This document shows, in pieces, positions 1 through 11,480 of a stretch of DNA of 64,000 bases (the first letter of the stretch is position 1; each line of letters opens with the position of its first letter). Made by a program: the position numbers and the translations under genes. The notes below the pieces were generated by a model. The model was not told the origin of the DNA and searched no databases. It was given only the letters and a program-made list of their open reading frames with translations. This DNA comes from Escherichia coli (GTDB lineage Bacteria; Pseudomonadota; Gammaproteobacteria; Enterobacterales; Enterobacteriaceae), in the NCBI RefSeq assembly GCF_041248615.1, contig NZ_CP158426.1; one strand, 5' to 3'.

Positions 1-276
1 AACACGTTTGGCATTGATCGCAGGCGTACCATCAAGTTCGGCCTGTCTGCGAAGCAGCGCCCATACCCGACGATAACCATACGTGGGCAGCTCTCCGATA
101 ACATGGTGTATACGGAGAAGCACATCCGTATCATCTGAGTGACGGCTGCGGCGACCATCTTTCCAGTCATCGGTTCGTCTGAGAATTACGTGCAACTGCG
201 CACGCGACACCCGGAGACAACGGCTGACTAAGCTTACTCCCCATCCCCGGGCAATAAGGGCGCGTGCGCTATCCAC
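1..276 (-). CDS. insD: IS2 transposase OrfB (InsD), N-terminal part only; truncated by window edge
   Basis: Reverse complement of 1-276 translates to (M/V)[45 protein letters not shown]...INAKRV; it overlaps the insC 3' end in another frame, as expected for IS3-family OrfAB frameshifting. Confidence 0.8.
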
Positions 277-599
277 TTTTTTGCACGCCCGTATTCAACG
301 GCTTCTTTAAGGAGTTCATTTTCCATCGTTTTTTTGCCGAGCAGGCGCTGGAGTTCTTTAATCTGCTTCATGGCAGCAGCAAGTTCAGAGGCAGGAACGA
401 CCTGCTCTCCTGCGGCCACAGCAGTAAGACTTCCCTCCTGGTATTGCTTGCGCCAGAGAAATAACTGGCTGGCTGCCACACCGTGTTGCCGGGCAACAAG
501 GGAGACCTTCATTCCCGGTTCAAAACTCTGCTGAACAATAGCGATCTTTTCCTGTGTAGTACGCCGTCTGCGTTTCTCCGGTCCTAAGACATCAATCAT
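234..599 (-). CDS. insC: IS2 transposase OrfA (InsC), 121 aa
   Basis: ORF 234..644 (-) contains [29 protein letters not shown]...[10 protein letters not shown]; start trimmed to the internal Met at 599. Confidence 0.85.
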
Positions 600-687
600 C
601 TGCTCTCCAATGACTAGTCTAAAAACTAGTATTAAGACTATCACTTATTTAAGTGATATTGGTTGTCTGGAGATTCATGGGGCCAGT

Positions 688-765
688 CTACATATAATCA
701 TGTTCATCTTCTAATTCTTTAAATTTTAATAGAGAAATCTCTTCATAATATTCTTTCATTTTCAT
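688..765 (-). pseudogene. Short ORF (MKMKEYYEEISLLKFKELEDEHDYM*) with a good Shine-Dalgarno; its stop codon TAG is the first triplet of the IS2 terminus, so it is probably the 5' remnant of a gene interrupted by IS2
   Basis: AAGGTGA lies 5 nt upstream of the ATG at 765; the frame runs straight into the IS2 end (TAGACTGG). Flanking DNA is very AT-rich. Product not recognised. Confidence 0.3.
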
Positions 766-1184
766 ATAAATCACCTTTTATTTTTTTGTTGTTAACACAG
801 GTTTTTTTCTGCACTACACATTATAGCACATAGAATTAATTCGTTTCATTTTCTGTCAATGAAATAGAGTAAAGATAAATGCTTTTATAAAGCACTTATC
901 ACATCCGTTGCCTTGCTATATATAAAAAGTTCTCCAAACTATACTGGTGTATATTTTCCCCATCAGATACAGTTGTTTTTAAACATTACAATGTTGGATT
1001 CTTGGTTCCAAATAAATCGAGCAACTATTAGTGTTTCAAAATGAAGTTGGGAGCTATTCCTTAATTCGTATGAGGTACAAAATGGGGTACTCGGTGGGGT
1101 ACAGCGTGTATAAGTGACGTCACCACGGGTAAACTTGCATCGGCGAGCAACTTAACCTAAGCTGACAAAAATTAAGAGAAATGT

Positions 1185-1317
1185 AACCAAACGACTCGGG
1201 GTGCCCTTCTGCGTGAAGGCTGAGAAATACCCGTATCACCTGATCTGGATAATGCCAGCGTAGGGAAGTCACGGACCACCAGGTCATTGCTTCTTCACGT
1301 TATGGCAGGAGCAAACT
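1185..1317 (+). promoter_or_regulatory. TPP (thi-box) riboswitch in the thiM 5' leader
   Basis: Sequence AACCAAACGACTCGGGGTGCCCTTCTGCGTGAAGGCTGAGAAATACCCGTATCACCTGATCTGGATAATGCCAGCGTAGGGAA matches the well-known thiM TPP aptamer (CUGAGA motif, P1-P5 arrangement), directly upstream of the thiM ATG. Confidence 0.9.
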
Positions 1318-2106
1318 ATGCAAGTCGACCTGCTGAGTTCCGCGCAATCTGCGCACGCGTTACACCTTTTTCACCAACATTCCCCTCTTGTGCACTGCAT
1401 GACCAACGATGTGGTGCAAACCTTTACTGCCAATACCTTGCTGGCGCTCGGTGCATCGCCAGCGATGGTTATCGAAACCGAAGAGGCCAGTCAGTTTGCG
1501 GCTATCGCCAGTGCGTTGCTGATTAACGTTGGCACGCTGACGCAGCCACGCGCACAGGCGATGCGTGCCGCCGTTGAACAGGCAAAACGCTCTCAAACAC
1601 CCTGGATGCTTGATCCAGTAGCGGTGGGTGCACTCGATTATCGCCGCCGTTTTTGTCTGGAACTTCTGTCTCATAAGCCAACCGCCATACGTGGTAATGC
1701 TTCGGAAATCATGGCATTAGCTGGCGTTGCTAATGGTGGACGGGGAGTGGATACCACTGACGCCGCAGCTAACGCGATACCCGCTGCACAAACACTGGCA
1801 CGGGAAACTGGCGCAATCGTCGTGGTCACTGGCGAGATGGATTATGTTACCGATGGACATCGTATCATTGGTATTCACGGTGGCGATCCGTTAATGACCA
1901 AAGTGGTAGGAACTGGCTGTGCATTATCGGCGGTTGTCGCTGCCTGTTGTGCGTTACCAGGCGATACGCTGGAAAATGTCGCATCTGCCTGTCACTGGAT
2001 GAAACAAGCCGGAGAACGCGCAGTCGCCAGTAGCGAGGGGCCAGGCAGTTTTGTTCCACATTTCCTTGATGCGCTCTGGCAATTGACGCCGGAGGTGCAG
2101 GCATGA
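1318..2106 (+). CDS. thiM: Hydroxyethylthiazole kinase
   Basis: 262 aa ORF beginning [33 protein letters not shown]; recognised ThiM; overlaps thiD start by 4 nt. Confidence 0.95.
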
Positions 2107-2903
2107 AACGAATTAACGCTCTGACGATTGCCGGTACTGATCCGAGTGGTGGTGCGGGGATTCAGGCCGATCTTAAAACCTTCTCGGCACTTGGCGCTTA
2201 TGGTTGCTCAGTGATTACTGCACTGGTGGCGCAAAATACCCGTGGCGTACAGTCGGTGTATCGCATTGAGCCTGATTTTGTCGCCGCCCAGCTCGATTCG
2301 GTGTTCAGCGATGTGCGAATCGATACCACTAAAATCGGTATGTTGGCGGAAACCGATATTGTTGAAGCGGTGGCAGAACGGTTGCAACGTTATCAGATCC
2401 AAAACGTGGTACTCGACACCGTTATGCTGGCAAAAAGCGGCGACCCGCTGCTTTCACCTTCGGCGGTTGCTACGCTGCGCAGTCGATTATTGCCACAGGT
2501 TTCATTAATAACGCCAAACTTGCCCGAAGCTGCTGCCTTGCTCGACGCGCCACACGCGCGCACCGAACAGGAAATGCTGGAACAAGGGCGATCGCTGTTG
2601 GCGATGGGCTGTGGCGCAGTGCTAATGAAAGGTGGTCATCTGGATGATGAGCAAAGCCCGGACTGGCTGTTTACTCGCGAGGGAGAACAACGGTTTACCG
2701 CACCGCGCATTATGACCAAAAACACCCACGGCACTGGTTGTACGCTCTCTGCGGCGTTGGCTGCACTACGCCCGCGCCATACAAACTGGGCTGACACCGT
2801 ACAGGAGGCAAAAAGCTGGCTTTCATCGGCGTTAGCCCAGGCCGACACGCTGGAAGTTGGTCACGGTATTGGTCCGGTTCACCACTTCCACGCCTGGTGG
2901 TGA
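2103..2903 (+). CDS. thiD: Hydroxymethylpyrimidine / phosphomethylpyrimidine kinase
   Basis: 266 aa [34 protein letters not shown]...; PfkB-like ThiD, translationally coupled to thiM. Confidence 0.95.
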
Positions 2904-2958
2904 GCACCGTACTATAGCTGCTTTGGTTATTGTCAGCCTTTGGCACTGACATTCAGGG

Positions 2959-3786
2959 ATGAAACCAATGCAGCTAAGAATCACCAGTCGAAAAAAACTC
3001 ACCGCTTTATTATGCGCTCTTGGGCTAATTTCCATCGTTGCGATTCATCCGCGTCAGACGGTGAATTTTTTCTATTCGACAGCAATTCAGATTAAAGACT
3101 ACATCCACTTCTACGGTTATCGCCCGGTTAAATCTTTCGCTATTCGCATTCCTGCCAGTTACACCATTCACGGAATAGATGTTTCGCGCTGGCAGGAGCG
3201 AATCGACTGGCAGCGGGTGGCAAAAATGCGCGATAACGGTATTCGCTTGCAATTTGCCTTTATCAAGGCGACGGAAGGCGAAAAGCTGGTGGACCCCTAT
3301 TTTTCGCGTAACTGGCAACTAAGCCGCGAAAATGGCCTGCTGCGCGGGGCGTATCATTATTTTTCCCCGTCGGTATCCGCTTCAGTTCAGGCGAGATTAT
3401 TTCTGCAAACGGTGGATTTCTCACAAGGCGATTTCCCTGCCGTGCTGGACGTAGAAGAACGGGGAAAATTATCGGCAAAAGAATTACGCAAGCGGGTAAG
3501 TCAGTGGCTAAAAATGGTCGAAAAAAGTACGGGGAAAAAGCCGATTATTTACTCAGGAGCCGTTTTTTATCACACGAATCTGGCGGGCTATTTCAATGAA
3601 TATCCGTGGTGGGTGGCTCATTACTATCAACGTCGTCCGGACAATGACGGCATGGCCTGGCGCTTCTGGCAGCATTCCGACCGTGGACAGGTAGATGGCA
3701 TTAATGGTCCGGTGGATTTTAATGTGTTTAATGGCACGGTGGAGGAGTTGCAGGTATTCGTTGATGGGATTAAAGAAACGCCTTAA
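2959..3786 (+). CDS. yegX: Glycoside hydrolase family 25 (lysozyme-like) protein with N-terminal signal/anchor
   Basis: 275 aa ORF; position after thiD and recalled YegX identity; hydrophobic N-terminus LTALLCALGLISIVA. Confidence 0.8.
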   Translation: MKPMQLRITSRKKLTALLCALGLISIVAIHPRQTVNFFYSTAIQIKDYIHFYGYRPVKSFAIRIPASYTIHGIDVSRWQERIDWQRVAKMRDNGIRLQFAFIKATEGEKLVDPYFSRNWQLSRENGLLRGAYHYFSPSVSASVQARLFLQTVDFSQGDFPAVLDVEERGKLSAKELRKRVSQWLKMVEKSTGKKPIIYSGAVFYHTNLAGYFNEYPWWVAHYYQRRPDNDGMAWRFWQHSDRGQVDGINGPVDFNVFNGTVEELQVFVDGIKETP

Positions 3787-3837
3787 ATAAGAAGCAGTGA
3801 TATACTCCCACCAGACTCCCTGGCAGGAAAAAGACAA

Positions 3838-4584
3838 ATGGAACAAGCGCATACCCAGCTGATTGCCCAACTGAACGAACGTATTTTAGCGGCGGATAAC
3901 ACGCCGCTTTATATTAAGTTTGCCGAAACGGTAAAAAATGCCGTGCGCAGCGGGGTGCTGGAGCATGGCAATATTTTGCCCGGTGAGCGTGATTTAAGTC
4001 AGTTAACCGGCGTTTCGCGCATTACGGTGCGCAAGGCGATGCAGGCGCTGGAAGAAGAGGGCGTGGTGACGCGTTCGCGTGGTTACGGTACGCAGATCAA
4101 CAACATCTTCGAATACTCGTTGAAAGAAGCGCGAGGTTTTTCTCAGCAGGTGGTATTGCGCGGGAAAAAGCCCGATACACTATGGGTTAACAAGCGTGTC
4201 GTGAAATGTCCCGAAGAAGTCGCGCAGCAGCTAGCGGTCGAAGCAGGAAGTAATGTCTTTTTGCTTAAGCGTATTCGCTATGTCGATGAAGAAGCGGTAT
4301 CAATTGAGGAATCGTGGGTTCCGGCGCATTTAATTCATGATGTTGATGCCATCGGAATTTCTCTTTATGACTACTTCCGCAGCCAGCACATTTACCCACA
4401 ACGTACGCGTTCCCGCGTTAGCGCCCGGATGCCGGATGCCGAGTTTCAGTCACATATTCAGTTAGATAGCAAAATACCGGTGCTGGTGATCAAGCAAGTG
4501 GCGCTTGACCAACAGCAACGGCCTATTGAGTACAGCATTAGCCACTGTCGCAGCGATCTATACGTTTTTGTGTGCGAGGAGTAG
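3838..4584 (+). CDS. yegW: GntR-family (HutC-like) transcriptional regulator
   Basis: 248 aa; N-terminal winged HTH (LPGERDLSQLTGVSRITVRKAMQALEEEG) followed by a UTRA-like effector domain. Confidence 0.8.
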   Translation: MEQAHTQLIAQLNERILAADNTPLYIKFAETVKNAVRSGVLEHGNILPGERDLSQLTGVSRITVRKAMQALEEEGVVTRSRGYGTQINNIFEYSLKEARGFSQQVVLRGKKPDTLWVNKRVVKCPEEVAQQLAVEAGSNVFLLKRIRYVDEEAVSIEESWVPAHLIHDVDAIGISLYDYFRSQHIYPQRTRSRVSARMPDAEFQSHIQLDSKIPVLVIKQVALDQQQRPIEYSISHCRSDLYVFVCEE

Positions 4585-5523
4585 TTCCTCGCGCGTTGGC
4601 GCACAATCACCGCCCCGATGCCCGACAACCCATGACGCCACTGCATTGCCCAGTAATACAGCATCCGCCAGTGGCAGACCAGAGGCCAGCCCGGCAAGTA
4701 CGCCGCCGGCATGACTGTCGCCCGCCCCAATGGTGTCTACAACTTGAGTTGGAAATGCCGGAATGCAGCCAGAAGCGTCGTTGCTGAAATACCATGCGCC
4801 CTCTTTATCGAGACGAATGATCAACGGCGCGGCAAATTTCTCCTGCCATTGCTTGCCAAGTGTTGTTATCTCTGCGGATAAAGCAAAACGTTCGGCGGCA
4901 ATCTCAGCCTCCTGACGATTGAGTGACACTAAAGGTCGACAGGCCATGATCCGCGCCAGTAATGCATCCGGGATATCGCCAATACGTGGGCCAAAATCGA
5001 TAAACGGCGTCACGTCTTGCAGCTTTTCCAGCCATTCCACTAATAATTCGCCGCAGGGCGAGGCCAGTTGATAACCGGAAAAATAGAGCAGGCTGCCAGG
5101 CGCAACGGTTAATCGCGCCAGCCACTGGCGATTCCACTGATTTTCCACACCGCTGAATGACATAAAAGTGCGTTCGCCATCCGGCTCAACCAGCGCCAGA
5201 CACCAGCCGTTATCGCCTTCGGCGTTATCGATCAGGCTGATTAACCCCTCTTTCGCCATCCGGTTGCGAATAATCTCCGCCCACACGCCCTGACCGAGCG
5301 GCAAGGCATTACCCGCTTCGATGCCGAGGCGCTTTAACGCCACGGCAATATTCAGTGCGCAGCCGCCAACGTTAACGCTCTGCTGTTTCAGTTCGATATC
5401 GCACCCACGCCAGGGGAGGGCATAAGCGTCGGCGATCACATCAATGACCGCCGCGCCGACGACCATCACCGGCTGACGCGTGGCTAATTCAGGCAGCAGC
5501 GTGTGTAATCGAGCGCCGCTCAT
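4558..5523 (-). CDS. yegV: PfkB-family sugar/nucleoside kinase
   Basis: 321 aa; PfkB signature near the C-terminus (DTIGAGDSHAGG); start overlaps yegU stop (ATGA). Confidence 0.8.
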   Translation of the reverse strand: MSGARLHTLLPELATRQPVMVVGAAVIDVIADAYALPWRGCDIELKQQSVNVGGCALNIAVALKRLGIEAGNALPLGQGVWAEIIRNRMAKEGLISLIDNAEGDNGWCLALVEPDGERTFMSFSGVENQWNRQWLARLTVAPGSLLYFSGYQLASPCGELLVEWLEKLQDVTPFIDFGPRIGDIPDALLARIMACRPLVSLNRQEAEIAAERFALSAEITTLGKQWQEKFAAPLIIRLDKEGAWYFSNDASGCIPAFPTQVVDTIGAGDSHAGGVLAGLASGLPLADAVLLGNAVASWVVGHRGGDCAPTREELLLAHKNV

Positions 5524-6524
5524 ATCGCCTCCCGTTGTTGGCGATACTTCGCCAGCGCCGTGGCATAGCGGTTGAAATCAAGCTGATTTACCGCATCCAG
5601 TTCCGTCTTTAACGCAGGATCGATTGCGTTAACGCCATGCAACGCGCCACAAATTGCCGTCGCCATAGCACCGATGGTGTCTGTGTCGCCGCCAAGGTTA
5701 GCGCACAGGACGGCGCAACGGTTCGGGTCGGTTTGTGCCAGTTCAACCAGCGCAATGGCGCACGGAACGGACTCAATAGTGCTGGTACCTGCGCCAACGA
5801 CCTGGTAAAGCTGTTCGCTGGCGGATTCGGTGCCGTCGGCATTGCGCACAATTTTCAGCGCAATCTCCAGACGTGCTGCCAGTGAGGCGCTGAAGGTAGT
5901 GATGCGTTTTTGTTGAGCATGTCGCGCAATTGAAGGCAGTGAATCAACAATTGCTGACCAGCTTTCTCCGTCAATGGCACGAGAAATCGCCCATGCGATG
6001 ACTACCGCCCCCGCAACCGCCAGATCGGATTTATGTGTCGGGCTGGAGGCCAGCGCCACATCATCAATAAAGGAATCAACATCACGCGCCGGAAGCAAAC
6101 AACCTAATGGCGAGACGCGCATCGCTGCGCCGTTGGTCACGCCGTTATTTTCCAGTTCAGCAACGGGTTTACCGTCGCGAATGGCGTTAAGCGCAATCTT
6201 CGAGGTCGGACCTAGTACGTTTTTGTTAAAGGCGTCGAAACGCAGCGCCCAGTCGAGAATATTACGCCCAATCAGATCTGGATCGATCTTGCCTTCACGT
6301 TCCAGTAACGCATCCGCCAGACACAGCGCCATCGAGGTATCGTCGGTGAATTCGGCGCGGTTAAAATAACAGGCTGCGTTATTCTCCTTTGGTCCAGGCA
6401 GAAAACGATCAATCCAGCCAAAGTGTGCTTTAACGCGGCTGCGTGGCCAAAGCTCGGAGGGCATCCCCATCGCATCCCCTAACGCCTGCCCATAAAGAGC
6501 ACCGAGAATACGTTCTGTTTTCAT
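5520..6524 (-). CDS. yegU: ADP-ribosylglycohydrolase-family protein
   Basis: 334 aa; MKTERILGALYGQALGDAMGMPSE... is typical of the DraG/ARH family N-terminus; overlaps yegT stop (ATGA). Confidence 0.8.
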   Translation of the reverse strand: MKTERILGALYGQALGDAMGMPSELWPRSRVKAHFGWIDRFLPGPKENNAACYFNRAEFTDDTSMALCLADALLEREGKIDPDLIGRNILDWALRFDAFNKNVLGPTSKIALNAIRDGKPVAELENNGVTNGAAMRVSPLGCLLPARDVDSFIDDVALASSPTHKSDLAVAGAVVIAWAISRAIDGESWSAIVDSLPSIARHAQQKRITTFSASLAARLEIALKIVRNADGTESASEQLYQVVGAGTSTIESVPCAIALVELAQTDPNRCAVLCANLGGDTDTIGAMATAICGALHGVNAIDPALKTELDAVNQLDFNRYATALAKYRQQREAI

Positions 6525-7798
6525 TTAACTTCCCCTTGTGTCAACGCAATATCGCGATCATCGACCTTGATAGCCGTAATTTCGTTGTCGGATTCGCGGA
6601 AAAAAATCATGAACAGCACGGCGATAATGGCAATCATCACCGCGCCAAAAGTCCACATCCCGGACCAGTTGAAAGTCAGTCCGTTTACCGGTTCCTGATA
6701 AGCGAACATCTTTTCCATCATCACACCGCCAAGACGATAGCCGAGCAAACTGCCGAAGCCCTGGCAGCAGAGCGTGATCAGCCCCTGCGCAGCGGTACGC
6801 ATATGCACGGGGGCTTTTTTATCGACATAGATGTAAGCGGTAACGTAGTAAAAATCGTAACTTACTCCATGCAGCAAAATGCCGAGGAACAGTAACGCGT
6901 AGGTGAAATATTCATCCGCACTACCGTAAATAAAGAAGCCATAGCGGATCGCAGCGGTGACCAGACCAAGTAATAATACCTTTTTGATACCAAAGCGTTT
7001 GGTGAAAAACGGCAATGCCAGCATAAAGAAGATTTCAGAGAACTGGCCGAGCGTCATCCAGCCAGTGGCGTTTTTCATACCGACTTCGGTCAGATAACCG
7101 TTGGCAAAGATGTAATAGAACGCCAGTGGCATCGCAAACAGGAATGAACAGAAGAAAAAGACGAGGAAGTTTTTATCGCGCAGCAGGATCAGCGCATCCA
7201 GGCCGAGCATGACTTTAATGTCCATTTTGCCGGTGCTTTTTGGCGGCGTGTCGGGCAGGAAAAACGCAAACACACCGAGCAGAGCAGAACTTCCGGCGGT
7301 AATCAGCAGCGGGATGTTAGTCGGAGAGATATCGGCATAACCCAGCATTTGCGGCAAAAATCCACATGCCAGACCAGAGGCAATCCAGCCGATAGTGCCC
7401 ATCACACGAATGCGTGGGAAATCACGCTCCACATCCGGCACGTTGGCAAAAGCGATACTGTTAGTCAGCGCAATGGTCGGCATATAGGTTAGCGAGTAGG
7501 CCAGCAGTAACGGGAAGAACCCGGCAAAAGTGGTCTGTTGCGCAGCGAAATACATCAGCGCCGCACCAGCGAACATCAATACCGCCAGCACTTTCTGCGC
7601 CGAGAAAAAGCGGTCAGTGATGGAGCCAACCAGAATTGGCGACAGGATCGCCGCAATGGCGGTACAGGCATACGACCAGCCAATTTCTCCGGCACTAAAA
7701 CCGCTTTTACTTAACCACAACCACAATGGCACAAACCACGCGCCCCAGATAAACCATTCAACAAACATCATGAACGACAGCTTTGCTGTTGTTTTCAT
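6521..7798 (-). CDS. yegT: Nucleoside:H+ symporter family (NupG/XapB-like) MFS transporter
   Basis: 425 aa, multi-pass hydrophobic protein; recalled YegT; first gene of an overlapping yegT-yegU-yegV operon. Confidence 0.8.
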   Translation of the reverse strand: MKTTAKLSFMMFVEWFIWGAWFVPLWLWLSKSGFSAGEIGWSYACTAIAAILSPILVGSITDRFFSAQKVLAVLMFAGAALMYFAAQQTTFAGFFPLLLAYSLTYMPTIALTNSIAFANVPDVERDFPRIRVMGTIGWIASGLACGFLPQMLGYADISPTNIPLLITAGSSALLGVFAFFLPDTPPKSTGKMDIKVMLGLDALILLRDKNFLVFFFCSFLFAMPLAFYYIFANGYLTEVGMKNATGWMTLGQFSEIFFMLALPFFTKRFGIKKVLLLGLVTAAIRYGFFIYGSADEYFTYALLFLGILLHGVSYDFYYVTAYIYVDKKAPVHMRTAAQGLITLCCQGFGSLLGYRLGGVMMEKMFAYQEPVNGLTFNWSGMWTFGAVMIAIIAVLFMIFFRESDNEITAIKVDDRDIALTQGEVK

Positions 7799-8054
7799 CT
7801 TTTAATTCCTTCATGACAGGTAATGTAAGGTACGCGATGACAACACCATTTAATAATACCTTTTAAATACCTTTGCGGTGAAAACTTGACCGCGGTAACA
7901 TTTTTTCTGATGAATCGAGCCAACAGAAAACGCTGAAAAAACATCCAAAAGATGGAAAAACTCGCCTGTAACGACCAGGATTATGATTGCCCGCAAAAGG
8001 CGGGCCAGGACAATCCATAGCCGATATCCAATCGGAATTTACGGGAGCATAGTA

Positions 8055-9107
8055 ATGACAGATATTGCGCAGTTGCTTGGCAAAGACGCCGACAACCTTT
8101 TACAGCACCGTTGTATGACTATTCCTTCTGACCAGCTTTATCTCCCCGGACATGACTACGTAGACCGCGTGATGATTGACAATAATCGCCCGCCAGCGGT
8201 GTTACGTAATATGCAGACGTTGTACAACACTGGGCGTCTGGCTGGCACAGGATATCTTTCTATTCTGCCCGTTGACCAGGGCGTTGAGCACTCTGCCGGA
8301 GCTTCATTTGCCGCTAACCCGCTCTACTTTGACCCGAAAAACATTGTTGAACTGGCGATCGAAGCGGGCTGTAACTGTGTGGCGTCAACTTACGGCGTGC
8401 TGGCGTCGGTATCGCGGCGTTACGCGCATCGCATTCCATTCCTCGTCAAACTTAATCACAACGAGACGCTAAGTTACCCGAATACCTACGATCAAACGCT
8501 GTATGCCAGCGTGGAGCAGGCGTTCAACATGGGCGCGGTGGCGGTTGGTGCGACTATCTATTTTGGCTCGGAAGAGTCACGTCGCCAGATTGAAGAAATT
8601 TCTGCGGCTTTTGAACGTGCGCACGAGCTGGGCATGGTGACTGTGCTGTGGGCCTATTTGCGTAACTCCGCCTTTAAGAAAGATGGCGTTGATTACCATG
8701 TTTCCGCCGACCTGACTGGTCAGGCGAACCATCTTGCGGCAACCATAGGTGCAGATATCGTCAAACAAAAAATGGCGGAAAATAACGGCGGCTATAAAGC
8801 AATTAATTACGGTTATACCGACGATCGCGTGTACAGCAAGTTAACCAGCGAAAACCCGATTGATCTGGTGCGTTATCAGTTAGCTAACTGCTATATGGGC
8901 CGGGCTGGGTTGATAAACTCCGGCGGTGCTGCAGGCGGTGAAACTGACCTCAGCGATGCAGTGCGTACTGCGGTTATCAACAAACGCGCTGGCGGAATGG
9001 GGCTGATTCTTGGACGTAAGGCGTTCAAGAAATCGATGGCTGACGGCGTGAAACTGATTAACGCCGTGCAGGACGTTTATCTCGATAGCAAAATTACTAT
9101 CGCCTGA
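8055..9107 (+). CDS. fbaB: Fructose-bisphosphate aldolase class I
   Basis: ORF 7983..9107 trimmed to [47 protein letters not shown] (350 aa), matching recalled FbaB. Confidence 0.9.
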
Positions 9108-9191
9108 TACGCCTTATACGAACAGCACTACCCCGTATGACGGAAAAGGCGTTTACGTCGCATCCGGCATAAAAACACGCGCACTTTGCTA

Positions 9192-9220
9192 CGGCTTCCC
9201 TATCGGGAGGCCGTTTTTTT
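9192..9220 (+). terminator. Rho-independent terminator downstream of fbaB
   Basis: GC-rich imperfect hairpin GGCTTCCC-TATC-GGGAGGCC followed by a T7 run. Confidence 0.5.
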
Positions 9221-9280
9221 GCCTGTCATTCTGATTAATTTTCGAATTGTCGTTTTTGTGATCGTTATCTCGAGATTTAA

Positions 9281-11480
<2,200 letters not shown>

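What the first reader, a model, noticed from the sequence alone, without database searches (positions are those of the whole stretch)
3838..8054. yegW plus overlapping yegT-yegU-yegV operon: putative uncharacterised nucleoside catabolic module
A nucleoside:H+ symporter-like transporter (YegT), an ADP-ribosylglycohydrolase-fold enzyme (YegU) and a PfkB ribokinase-like kinase (YegV) are encoded with ATGA stop/start overlaps, which indicates coupled expression. This transporter-glycohydrolase-kinase logic parallels pseudouridine and other nucleoside salvage operons, suggesting uptake, N-glycosidic cleavage and phosphorylation of an unidentified (possibly ribosylated) substrate. A GntR/HutC-type regulator (yegW) lies adjacent and convergent, with 27 bp of 3' overlap with yegV. 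The yegT promoter region is shared divergently with fbaB (7799-8054).
Basis: inference. Interest (0 to 1): 0.4.

Follow-up and report, generated by a model that had tools for sequence, protein, structure and literature searches.

The report
E. coli yegTUV operon and GgaR repressor
This is the known E. coli yegT-yegU-yegV operon with its already published repressor YegW (GgaR); it most likely imports an unusual ribose-linked compound, phosphorylates it and splits off ribose 5-phosphate, but the compound has still not been identified.

Summary
The locus is core E. coli (5419 of 5426 complete genomes). It is not new. A 2024 paper showed that YegW (renamed GgaR) is a single-target repressor of yegTUV, and YegT has a crystal structure. 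The enzymes have no known substrate. New here: (1) a candidate GgaR operator, tandem AAAGGTATT repeats on the predicted yegT promoter, conserved across Enterobacterales, with a weaker copy inside yegT where the published second site maps. (2) The YegU-YegV pair is the conserved core across phyla, is fused in both domain orders, and travels with five different transporter families. (3) YegV lacks the ribokinase residues that block a base pocket. (4) YegU keeps the catalytic metal and phosphate contacts of ADP-ribosylhydrolases but lacks the adenine clamp. The published ADP-glucose/glycogen link is weakly supported mechanistically. Interest is moderate.

The parts
3838..4584 (+). yegW (ggaR): GntR/HutC-type repressor with an N-terminal winged helix and a C-terminal UTRA effector domain
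   Evidence: ORF; Pfam GntR 59.2 bits and UTRA 125.5 bits; RefSeq annotation; shown to be a single-target repressor of yegTUV in PMC10819704.
4558..5523 (-). yegV: PfkB-family kinase, inferred to be a riboside 5'-kinase
   Evidence: Pfam PfkB 190.9 bits. No NCBIfam equivalog cut-off is reached. Asp28, GG53-54, Asn58, NxxE 202-205 and DTxGAGD 263-269 are conserved. The ribokinase Lys43 position is Cys, and the Glu143 position is Ala.
5520..6524 (-). yegU: ADP-ribosylglycohydrolase-fold metalloenzyme, inferred to be a riboside-5'-phosphate glycohydrolase
   Evidence: Pfam ADP_ribosyl_GH 224.9 bits. The metal ligands (D17, E24, T60-D61-D62, D280, D282, T283) and His164 are conserved. The equivalents of the ARH3 adenine clamp are absent.
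6521..7798 (-). yegT: nucleoside:H+ symporter (NHS/MFS) family transporter of unknown substrate
   Evidence: Pfam Nuc_H_symport 610.7 bits and TIGR00889 653.9 bits. Crystal structure with no binding of U/A/C/G (PMC11979927). No uptake of U, C, xanthosine or gemcitabine (PMC11241209).
4558..4584 (.). 27-bp convergent 3' overlap of yegV and yegW, with no room for a terminator between the genes
   Evidence: The overlap length is identical in 22 loci. The pair is listed as a predicted excludon in PMC12288877. No intrinsic terminator-like site was found at the junction.
7799..8054 (.). yegT-fbaB divergent intergenic region holding the yegT promoter and operator
   Evidence: The published GgaR ChIP peak and the gel-shift probe-2 (190 bp upstream of yegT) map here (PMC10819704).
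7853..7882 (-). Predicted sigma-70 yegT promoter: -35 TTCACC (7882-7877), 18-nt spacer, -10 TATTAT (7858-7853)
   Evidence: Consensus scan, 9 of 12 matches. This is a prediction only, and the number of promoter-like sites in the scanned region was not above the shuffled expectation. The -10 element lies inside the conserved block, but the -35 is not conserved between genera.
7842..7874 (-). Candidate GgaR operator O1: direct repeats AAAGGTATT (7874-7866), AAAGGTATT (7863-7855) and a degenerate AATGGTGTT (7850-7842), spaced 11 and 13 nt and overlapping the promoter spacer and -10
   Evidence: The exact 9-mer occurs only 3 times in 64 kb. The block is invariant in six genera while the spacer as a whole averages 77% identity. 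The tandem is present upstream of the yegT orthologue in nearly all Enterobacterales loci. The GgaR paper defines no motif.
7818..7832 (+). Two opposite-orientation AGGTA elements (7818-7822, 7828-7832) between the promoter and the yegT start, possibly additional half-sites
   Evidence: They are conserved as GCGTACC..TTACCTG in six genera; E. coli alone has a 5-bp insertion between them.
6961..6996 (-). Candidate weak operator O2 inside yegT (core AAAGGTATT at 6983-6975), 27 of 36 nt identical to O1 in register
   Evidence: It lies inside ORF nt 571-869, the fragment that bound GgaR only at the higher protein amount (PMC10819704). It shows no excess synonymous conservation.

Best explanation
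yegTUV is a repressor-controlled, three-gene module for using an exogenous non-canonical riboside, meaning a ribose joined through C1 to something other than a standard base.

Step 1 (inferred): YegT imports the compound by proton symport. Its ribose-contacting residues are those of NupG, but its base-contacting residues differ.

Step 2 (inferred): YegV phosphorylates the intact riboside on the 5'-OH, which also traps it in the cell.

Step 3 (inferred): YegU uses the binuclear metal site of the ADP-ribosylhydrolase fold to cleave the C1 glycosidic bond of the riboside 5'-phosphate. This gives ribose 5-phosphate for central metabolism plus the free aglycone. No dedicated downstream enzyme is conserved with the module.

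Regulation: YegW/GgaR keeps the operon about 30-fold repressed (shown in the literature). It most likely does so by occupying tandem AAAGGTATT repeats that overlap the promoter spacer and the -10 element (inferred here), with a weaker copy about 880 bp downstream inside yegT. The physiological inducer is probably a phosphorylated pathway intermediate, and ADP-glucose, which was active in vitro, may mimic it (inferred). Because yegV and yegW overlap tail to tail, derepressed yegTUV transcription must run into yegW and may lower repressor synthesis (inferred).

Because characterised ARH enzymes cleave only alpha-linked ribosyl bonds, an alpha-riboside is a serious candidate, but the identity of the substrate is open.
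For: Operon and repression: a single 3.3-kb mRNA, one ChIP peak, gel shift and about 30-fold derepression (PMC10819704).

Operator: the exact 9-mer AAAGGTATT occurs 3 times in 64 kb, twice on the predicted promoter and once inside the published weak-binding fragment. The block is invariant in six genera, and the tandem is found across Enterobacterales.

Enzyme pairing: 65 of 71 loci have an adjacent same-strand PfkB, including 31 of the 36 below 60% identity. Nine of ten long homologues are ARH-PfkB fusions, in both domain orders.

Exogenous riboside: the pair is linked to NHS, NCS1, PnuC, ECF and Bmp-ABC transporters in different lineages. One relative sits beside psuG- and psuK-like genes.

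Kinase first: in 60 ARH-adjacent kinases the Asp16, GG, Asn46 and Asp255 equivalents are invariant. The Lys43 equivalent is never Lys (Cys in 55 of 60), and the Glu143 equivalent is never Glu in the 29 close relatives. Those two residues are what exclude a base from ribokinase (PMC7797080). PnuC-family transporters rely on kinase trapping (established knowledge).

YegU: the metal ligands and the phosphate-contacting His164 and Asn131-Gly132 are conserved, while the adenine-stacking Tyr and Phe of ARH3 are absent (PMC6309922).

Non-canonical substrate: YegT showed no binding of U, A, C or G and no uptake of U, C, xanthosine or gemcitabine (PMC11979927, PMC11241209). The ribose contacts R136, T140 and E264 are conserved (PMC8042404).
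Against: No substrate, product or activity has been measured for YegT, YegU or YegV, so all enzymatic steps are inferred from sequence and context. The only published physiology links the operon to glycogen and ADP-glucose, not to ribosides (PMC10819704). The YegV subfamily profile is closest overall to genuine ribokinases, and 18 of 31 distant members keep a Glu at the Glu143 position, so a ribose kinase acting after cleavage is not excluded everywhere. The residue equivalences come from sequence alignments, not from structures. The -35 element and the transcription start are predictions. O2 shows no selection beyond coding. No riboswitch or other direct pointer to a ligand was found.
Confidence: 0.55

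Rival explanations
1. Published model: GgaR senses ADP-glucose, and YegTUV act on or produce ADP-glucose, so the operon's role is to promote glycogen accumulation when glucose is plentiful.
For: ADP-glucose at 10-100 uM released GgaR from the spacer probe, whereas glucose and ADP did not. The ggaR mutant accumulates 2-3 times more glycogen. yegTUV mRNA rises about 3-fold at 1% versus 0.25% glucose in a GgaR-dependent way. A yegV deletion was listed among low-glycogen mutants (PMC10819704).
Against: No reaction of a nucleoside-type symporter, an ARH-fold hydrolase or a PfkB kinase is known to make ADP-glucose, and the paper itself calls the basis 'somewhat ambiguous'. Induction by glucose is 3-fold against 30-fold for the deletion, so ADP-glucose is at best a weak inducer in vivo. 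Only glucose and ADP were used as specificity controls. [quoted passage not shown] The same enzyme pair is attached to PnuC, NCS1 and ECF importers in other phyla, which points to an external small substrate. No epistasis test with yegT, yegU or yegV was reported.
Confidence: 0.15
2. One reading: YegU first cleaves the imported riboside to free ribose plus aglycone, and YegV is then a ribokinase paralogue that phosphorylates the ribose.
For: The closest solved relatives of the YegV subfamily are true ribokinases (E. coli RbsK, E = 1.2e-45). In Bacteroidetes, ribose utilisation loci combine ribokinases with ADP-ribosylglycohydrolases (bioRxiv 10.1101/574913). 18 distant YegV relatives keep a Glu at the Glu143 position.
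Against: The Lys43 position, strictly conserved in ribokinases and filling the base pocket (PMC7797080), is never Lys in 60 sequences, and the Asn14 position is always a non-polar residue. YegV reaches no ribokinase equivalog cut-off (82.8 bits against 299.65). E. coli already has RbsK. YegU keeps the residues that contact the 5''-phosphate side of the ribose in ARH3. PnuC-type partners imply trapping of the intact substrate by the kinase.
Confidence: 0.15
3. YegU is a true de-ADP-ribosylating enzyme, like DraG, ARH1, ARH3 or Tri1, that reverses ADP-ribosylation of a protein or nucleic acid. On this view its linkage to the transporter and kinase is incidental, or part of a stress or defence function.
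For: Membership of Pfam ADP_ribosyl_GH with an intact catalytic metal site. Weak NCBIfam similarity to DraG and Tri1.
Against: The DraG and Tri1 scores are far below their cut-offs (79.7 against 337; 69.1 against 490). The adenine-stacking residues are absent. YegU is translationally coupled to, and elsewhere fused with, a sugar-type kinase, and is linked to importers. None of the conserved neighbour families that were annotated is an ADP-ribosyltransferase, though neighbours were not searched for one specifically. There are no PADLOC hits for any of the four proteins.
Confidence: 0.05
4. Phosphopentomutase bypass: a nucleoside phosphorylase makes alpha-ribose 1-phosphate, YegV converts it to ribose 1,5-bisphosphate, and YegU hydrolyses the alpha-C1 phosphate to give ribose 5-phosphate.
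For: YegV and a relative give their better NCBIfam hits to ATP-dependent ribose-1-phosphate kinase. One locus adds a DeoD-type phosphorylase next to the pair. ARH enzymes act on alpha-C1 substituents, including O-linked ones (PMC9738213).
Against: All the kinase hits are far below cut-off. The phosphorylase is present in only one of the loci examined. The scheme does not explain why dedicated importers with altered base pockets accompany the pair. No ARH is known to cleave a C1 phosphate.
Confidence: 0.05

Closest known systems
E. coli pseudouridine catabolic genes psuT (yeiM), psuK (yeiC) and psuG (yeiN)
   Same: A nucleoside-type transporter, a PfkB kinase that phosphorylates the intact riboside at the 5'-OH, and a glycosidase that then releases ribose 5-phosphate. 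A YegU relative sits directly beside psuG- and psuK-like genes in one metagenomic locus.
   Different: The glycosidase fold differs (PF04227 Indigoidine_A against PF03747 ARH). PsuG cleaves a C-glycoside. The transporter is of the CNT family, not NHS. YegV scores only 19 bits against the pseudouridine kinase model. The substrate of YegTUV is unknown.
ADP-ribosylhydrolases ARH3, ARH1 and DraG (Pfam PF03747)
   Same: The fold and the binuclear metal ligands (Glu, Thr-Asp-Asp, Asp-x-Asp-Thr) are shared, as are the His and Asn-Gly that contact the phosphate and C5'' side of the distal ribose (PMC6309922).
   Different: The adenine clamp of ARH3 (Phe143, Tyr149) has no equivalent. The context is a metabolic operon with a transporter and a kinase, or a fusion to the kinase, rather than a signalling partner. 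The closest solved structure is the uncharacterised MJ1187 (1T5J), not ARH3.
PnuC-NadR nicotinamide riboside salvage (a facilitator plus a trapping kinase)
   Same: In Lachnospiraceae and Clostridium the ARH-PfkB pair is followed by a PnuC-family transporter that passes the TIGR01528 cut-off. The logic of uptake driven by cytoplasmic phosphorylation of a riboside is shared.
   Different: The kinase family differs (PfkB against the NadR ribosylnicotinamide kinase domain). A hydrolase follows the kinase, so the route is degradative or releases an aglycone rather than building a cofactor. E. coli uses an NHS symporter instead.
Bacteroidetes ribose utilisation systems (Rus loci)
   Same: Variable loci that combine ribokinases, a transporter and 'nucleoside-cleaving' enzymes, including ADP-ribosylglycohydrolases, and are thought to free ribose from diverse ribosides (bioRxiv 10.1101/574913).
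   Different: Rus loci are SusC/D-based polysaccharide-utilisation-type systems with bona fide ribokinases and ribose sensing. No ARH in them has been characterised either.
HutC-subfamily GntR repressors of adjacent catabolic operons (for example NagR, TreR, PhnF, MngR/FarR)
   Same: A winged helix plus a UTRA domain, local single-operon repression, and effectors that are usually phosphorylated pathway intermediates (general knowledge of the family; the best NCBIfam hits are PhnF and HutC, all below cut-off).
   Different: The candidate operator is a set of direct GGTAT-type repeats at 11- and 13-nt spacing rather than a simple palindrome. The only effector tested so far is ADP-glucose.

Membership tests
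ADP-ribosylglycohydrolase family (Pfam PF03747) | Profile match above the curated threshold | tested here: met
   224.9 bits against a cut-off of 26.2, covering profile positions 1-285 of 287.
ADP-ribosylglycohydrolase family (Pfam PF03747) | Binuclear metal-site ligands (ARH3 Glu41, Thr76-Asp77-Asp78, Asp314, Asp316, Thr317) | tested here: met
   E24, T60-D61-D62, D280, D282 and T283 are present in YegU. D61 and D282 are invariant and the others are at least 90% conserved in 40 homologues, except E24, which is conserved in 31 of 40.
ADP-ribosylglycohydrolase family (Pfam PF03747) | Recognition of the adenosine of ADP-ribose (ARH3 Phe143/Tyr149 stacking, Ser148) | tested here: not met
   The Tyr149 position is Val in YegU and aromatic in 1 of 40 homologues. 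The Ser148 position is Gly in 34 of 40. Phe143 falls in an alignment gap. This rests on a sequence alignment, not on a structure.
ADP-ribosylglycohydrolase family (Pfam PF03747) | Hydrolysis of alpha-ADP-ribosyl-acceptor bonds | not testable with these tools
   This needs an enzyme assay. The equivalog models for DraG (79.7 against 337 bits) and Tri1 (69.1 against 490 bits) are not reached.
PfkB / ribokinase-like kinases (Pfam PF00294) | Profile match and the catalytic motifs (GG switch, NxxE, GAGD with the catalytic Asp) | tested here: met
   190.9 bits against a cut-off of 25.8. G53-G54, N202-E205 and G266-A267-G268-D269 are conserved in 60 neighbours of YegU homologues.
Ribokinase proper (RbsK; TIGR02152 / NF008353) | Equivalog score, and the strictly conserved Lys43 and Glu143 that restrict the pocket to free ribose | tested here: not met
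   82.8 bits against a cut-off of 299.65. The Lys43 position is Cys in 55 of 60 and never Lys. The Glu143 position is Ala in E. coli and is Glu in none of the 29 close relatives. The role of these residues is taken from PMC7797080.
Nucleoside:H+ symporter family (NHS; PF03825 / TIGR00889) | Profile match above the curated thresholds | tested here: met
   610.7 bits (cut-off 25.9) and 653.9 bits (cut-off 446.1).
Nucleoside:H+ symporter family (NHS; PF03825 / TIGR00889) | Transport or binding of nucleosides | not testable with these tools
   The literature is negative so far for U, C, A, G, xanthosine and gemcitabine (PMC11979927, PMC11241209). The ribose-contact residues are conserved and the base-contact residues are not (PMC8042404).
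GntR family, HutC subfamily | N-terminal GntR winged helix plus C-terminal UTRA domain | tested here: met
   GntR 59.2 bits at residues 29-87 and UTRA 125.5 bits at residues 108-242.
GntR family, HutC subfamily | Binds an operator at, and represses, the adjacent operon | tested here: inconclusive
   Binding and repression are shown in PMC10819704. The operator sequence proposed here is inferred from conservation and position, not from a footprint.
Kinase-then-glycosidase riboside catabolism (pseudouridine type) | Co-transcribed transporter, PfkB riboside kinase and a glycosidase acting on the 5'-phosphate | tested here: inconclusive
   Gene content and coupling are met. The open base pocket of the kinase supports the order. 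The PsuG fold is not present, because YegU is ARH-fold. The reaction order has not been measured.
Excludon (convergent overlapping transcription units) | Convergent genes whose transcripts overlap, giving mutually exclusive expression | tested here: inconclusive
   The coding regions overlap by 27 bp, with no terminator-like site at the junction, and the overlap is fixed in 22 loci. The pair is listed by ExcludonFinder (PMC12288877). Its effect on expression has not been tested.

The most novel reading that the evidence does not exclude
YegU-type proteins are a widespread, uncharacterised branch of the ADP-ribosylhydrolase fold that does not act on ADP-ribosylated macromolecules. Instead they hydrolyse small riboside 5'-phosphates made by a dedicated PfkB kinase, possibly alpha-linked ribosides such as cobamide lower-ligand ribosides or breakdown products of ADP-ribosylation. 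That would define a new riboside salvage or catabolic route, shared by Enterobacterales, gut Firmicutes, Sutterellaceae, Actinobacteria and Chloroflexi and served by at least five different importer families.
Probability: 0.45. Interest if true: 0.65.

Novelty: already known. Interest (0 to 1): 0.35.

Why it matters
yegTUV is one of the remaining core E. coli operons with no assigned chemistry, and its only published physiology (glycogen, ADP-glucose) lacks a biochemical link to the encoded enzymes. If the kinase-then-ARH model is right, it would give the ADP-ribosylhydrolase fold a first small-molecule metabolic role. It would also explain a gene pair found in many gut bacteria, and it would identify a nutrient or vitamin-related riboside that these bacteria compete for. 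The operator sequence and the residue-level predictions make direct experiments possible: an inducer screen, a substrate panel and operator mutagenesis.

Tried and rejected
1. Literature on YegU, YegV or MJ1187 biochemistry: eight searches found none. As of July 2025 YegV was still listed as an uncharacterised sugar kinase (PMC12506659).

2. Selection on the intragenic operator copy O2: in six genera it looked conserved, but across 31 orthologues synonymous conservation there is ordinary (0.548 against a mean of 0.506, rank 139 of 415). I therefore do not claim that O2 is functional beyond the published weak binding in E. coli.

3. A CRP box in the spacer (CRP genomic SELEX signal, PMC3105977): only 3-mismatch matches were found, at background frequency.

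4. A riboswitch that would name the ligand: none in window 1-10000 apart from the thiM TPP element, and none next to the ARH-PfkB clusters in 15 loci without a GntR regulator.

5. An anti-phage defence role: no PADLOC hits.

6. A terminator or hairpin at the yegV/yegW junction: a perfect 7-bp inverted repeat exists in E. coli, but it is only partly conserved, and the invariance there mostly reflects dual coding.

7. A functional link to the neighbouring thiMD genes: the adjacency holds only in Enterobacteriaceae and is lost in Pectobacterium, Budvicia, Vibrio and beyond, so I treat it as coincidental.

8. A CobC-like phosphatase next to one fusion locus (best hit alpha-ribazole phosphatase, 114.6 bits against a cut-off of 162.9): a single case below threshold, kept only as a lead.

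9. Structure prediction and fold search were not run. The fold is not in doubt, and without ligand docking they would not discriminate between substrates.

Full report
**1. What is there**

The window is E. coli chromosome. Bases 3500-8500 are 100% identical to NZ_LT599825, and 5419 of 5426 complete E. coli genomes carry at least 80% of this stretch. The ORF list, the junction sequences and the RefSeq annotation agree with the finding base for base:
- yegW 3838-4584 (+)
- yegV 4558-5523 (-)
- yegU 5520-6524 (-)
- yegT 6521-7798 (-)
- fbaB from 8055 (+)

Both internal junctions are ATGA, the yegV/yegW tails overlap by 27 bp, and the spacer to fbaB is 256 bp. The family assignments hold: YegT is a nucleoside:H+ symporter-family MFS protein, YegU is an ADP-ribosylglycohydrolase (ARH) fold protein, YegV is a PfkB kinase, and YegW is a GntR plus UTRA (HutC-type) regulator. 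None of the three enzymes or the regulator reaches an NCBIfam equivalog cut-off, so none can be named by homology. The layout is conserved in Salmonella, Citrobacter, Klebsiella, Kluyvera and an unnamed enterobacterium. The 27-bp overlap has the same length in 22 loci, out to Pectobacterium and Cedecea.

**2. What is already published**

The regulatory part of the finding is known. Saito et al. 2024 (PMC10819704) showed the following:
- By ChIP-chip, YegW binds a single region of the genome, the fbaB/yegT spacer, plus a weaker site inside yegT (ORF nt 571-869).
- Gel shifts confirm both sites.
- yegTUV is one 3.3-kb mRNA that is undetectable in wild type and about 30-fold higher in the mutant.
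- fbaB mRNA is not affected.

They renamed the regulator GgaR. ADP-glucose (10-100 uM) released it from DNA in vitro, and the mutant makes 2-3 times more glycogen. [quoted passage not shown]

YegT has a 3.1-angstrom crystal structure. It gave no ITC signal with uridine, adenosine, cytidine or guanosine (PMC11979927) and no uptake of uridine, cytidine, xanthosine or gemcitabine (PMC11241209). Its ribose-contacting residues are those of NupG, while its base-contacting residues differ (PMC8042404). The yegV-yegW pair is listed as a predicted excludon (PMC12288877). In July 2025 YegV was still cited as an uncharacterised sugar kinase (PMC12506659). I found no biochemistry for YegU, YegV or their closest solved relative MJ1187.

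**3. The operator (new here)**

On the yegT strand, a consensus scan finds a promoter-like site: -35 TTCACC at 7882-7877 and -10 TATTAT at 7858-7853. This is a prediction only.

A perfect direct repeat, AAAGGTATT at 7874-7866 and 7863-7855, lies between and over these elements. A degenerate third copy follows 13 nt further on, and two opposite-orientation AGGTA elements lie downstream.

The exact 9-mer occurs only three times in the 64-kb window. The third copy, at 6983-6975, lies inside the fragment that carries the published weak site, and its surroundings match the promoter element at 27 of 36 positions in register.

In an alignment of six genera the spacer averages 77% column identity, but the block CAAAGGTATTTAAAAGGTATTA...ATGGTAT...GCGTACC...TTACCTG is almost invariant. 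The tandem is present upstream of the yegT orthologue in nearly all Enterobacterales loci retrieved, degenerates in Vibrio and is absent from Firmicutes loci. This makes it a strong candidate for the primary operator (O1), acting by promoter occlusion.

The intragenic copy (O2) shows no synonymous-site conservation above the gene's background (rank 139 of 415 windows). Its significance beyond weak binding in E. coli is therefore doubtful.

I could not find a convincing CRP box despite a SELEX report of CRP binding in this spacer (PMC3105977).

**4. The enzymes in comparative context (new here)**

An exhaustive search found 6993 representative homologues of YegU, 237 of them at E <= 1e-30. Nine of the ten long ones examined are fusions of an ARH domain with a PfkB kinase, and both domain orders occur. 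Those that could be traced are bacterial.

I clustered the ORFs of 79 genomic loci spanning Enterobacterales, Vibrio, Aeromonas, Firmicutes, Sutterellaceae, Actinobacteria and Chloroflexi. Of the 71 loci with an intact YegU homologue:
- 65 have an adjacent same-strand PfkB gene, including 31 of the 36 whose ARH is below 60% identical to YegU.
- 54 have a GntR/UTRA regulator.
- 31 have the NHS transporter, all of them Gammaproteobacteria.

Elsewhere the transporter is an NCS1 permease (18 loci) or a PnuC-family transporter (13 loci). One fusion protein follows an ECF transporter, and another sits beside an NCS1 permease. A double-ARH protein follows a Bmp-type ABC transporter, a PsuG-family glycosidase and a PfkB kinase.

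No other enzyme is consistently associated. One locus adds a DeoD-type phosphorylase.

So the conserved unit is a regulator, an importer, a kinase and an ARH. The importer has been replaced repeatedly, always by families known to include carriers of nucleosides, nucleobases or vitamin-like ribosides.

**5. Order of reactions and nature of the substrate (inference)**

The YegV subfamily profile is closest to true ribokinases (E. coli RbsK, E = 1.2e-45). It keeps the residues that bind the ribose 2'/3'-hydroxyls (Asp28), Asn58, the GG switch, NxxE and the catalytic Asp269 in all 60 sequences. [quoted passage not shown] In the YegV subfamily the Lys43 position is never Lys (Cys in 55 of 60). The Asn14 position is always a non-polar residue. 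The Glu143 position is never Glu in the 29 close relatives, although 18 distant ones keep it. A new Tyr151 is nearly invariant next to it. YegV therefore looks like a kinase for an intact riboside. Association with PnuC-type facilitators, which depend on a trapping kinase (established knowledge), points the same way.

YegU keeps all the metal ligands of ARH3. It also keeps the Thr-His and Asn-Gly that contact the phosphate and C5'' side of the distal ribose, but the adenine-stacking Tyr and Phe have no equivalents (PMC6309922). This fits a substrate that carries a ribose 5-phosphate but no ADP.

The most economical scheme is therefore uptake, then 5'-phosphorylation, then glycosidic cleavage to ribose 5-phosphate plus aglycone.

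Characterised ARHs cleave only alpha-anomeric C1'' linkages, whether N- or O-linked (PMC9738213). Alpha-ribosides are therefore plausible substrates, for example cobamide lower-ligand ribosides or breakdown products of ADP-ribosylation. Modified beta-nucleosides and pyridine ribosides cannot be excluded. No riboswitch was found that would name the ligand.

**6. The published glycogen model**

I rate this model low as a description of what the enzymes do. No known reaction of these families leads to ADP-glucose. Induction by glucose is 3-fold, against 30-fold derepression in the mutant. Only glucose and ADP served as specificity controls for the effector. [quoted passage not shown] HutC-type regulators usually sense phosphorylated intermediates, so ADP-glucose may be a partial mimic. 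This is an argument, not a refutation. Epistasis tests with yegT, yegU and yegV would settle it.

**7. Other rivals**

A genuine de-ADP-ribosylase or defence function is unlikely. The adenine clamp is missing, the gene is coupled or fused to a kinase and linked to importers, none of the conserved neighbour families that were annotated is an ADP-ribosyltransferase, and there are no PADLOC hits. A bypass through ribose 1-phosphate and ribose 1,5-bisphosphate is chemically conceivable but rests on sub-threshold hits and a single locus.

**8. Verdict**

The entity is already known. What remains open, and is now sharpened into testable form, is the chemistry of a widely conserved ARH-PfkB pair. Interest is moderate at 0.35. 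If YegU-type proteins prove to be small-molecule riboside-phosphate hydrolases (probability about 0.45), that would be a new role for the ARH fold and a new pathway in a core E. coli operon.

Noticed in passing
window 1187-1283 (+): A TPP riboswitch (RF00059, 71.2 bits) lies upstream of thiM-thiD. These genes run in the same direction as yegX and yegW. It is a known element, and the adjacency of thiMD to yegW holds only within Enterobacteriaceae.
   Followed up: partly
window 7978-8016 (+), fbaB 5' leader: An inverted repeat, GGATTATGATTGCCCGC / GCGGGCCAGGACAATCC with a GCCCGC...GCGGGC core, lies just upstream of the fbaB start. A stem is retained at the same place in other genera with different sequences (for example CCCAA...TTGGG in Klebsiella), which suggests a conserved leader hairpin of unknown role.
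   Followed up: partly
window 2959-3786 (+) (annotated start 2968): yegX, a glycoside hydrolase family 25 (lysozyme-like) gene, sits between thiD and yegW in E. coli. It is absent from that position in the Salmonella, Citrobacter, Klebsiella, Kluyvera and other enterobacterial loci examined, so it looks like a lineage-specific insertion.
   Followed up: partly
window 7820-7832: E. coli alone has a 5-bp insertion (TTACA, which duplicates adjacent sequence) between the two inverted AGGTA elements downstream of the yegT promoter. The five other genera compared lack it. It changes the spacing of possible auxiliary half-sites.
   Followed up: no
window 4574-4592: A perfect 7-bp inverted repeat, GCGAGGA-N5-TCCTCGC, is centred on the yegW stop codon inside the yegV/yegW overlap. 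It is only partly conserved in other genera, so it may be a by-product of dual coding rather than a terminator.
   Followed up: yes
L039, L041 (Edwardsiella), L048 (Serratia): In these loci a YegU homologue (62-65% identical) is paired with the GntR regulator but has no adjacent kinase or transporter. This is either a remnant or a differently organised system.
   Followed up: no
L092 6001-8079: A 692-aa protein made of two ARH domains (175 members in its cluster, all from metagenomes) directly follows a Bmp-type ABC transporter, a PsuG-family glycosidase and a PfkB kinase. This ties the ARH fold to a gene neighbourhood for modified-nucleoside catabolism.
   Followed up: partly
L090 1181-1711 (-): A small histidine-phosphatase gene lies divergent from a cluster of GntR, ECF transporter and a PfkB-ARH fusion. 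Its best NCBIfam hit is alpha-ribazole phosphatase CobC (114.6 bits, below the 162.9 cut-off). This is a single observation, but it fits the alpha-riboside idea.
   Followed up: partly
L034, L035 (Vibrio): The Vibrio versions of the operon carry an extra MFS transporter gene between the kinase and the regulator. The regulator is co-directional rather than convergent, and the AAGGTATT tandem is degenerate.
   Followed up: no
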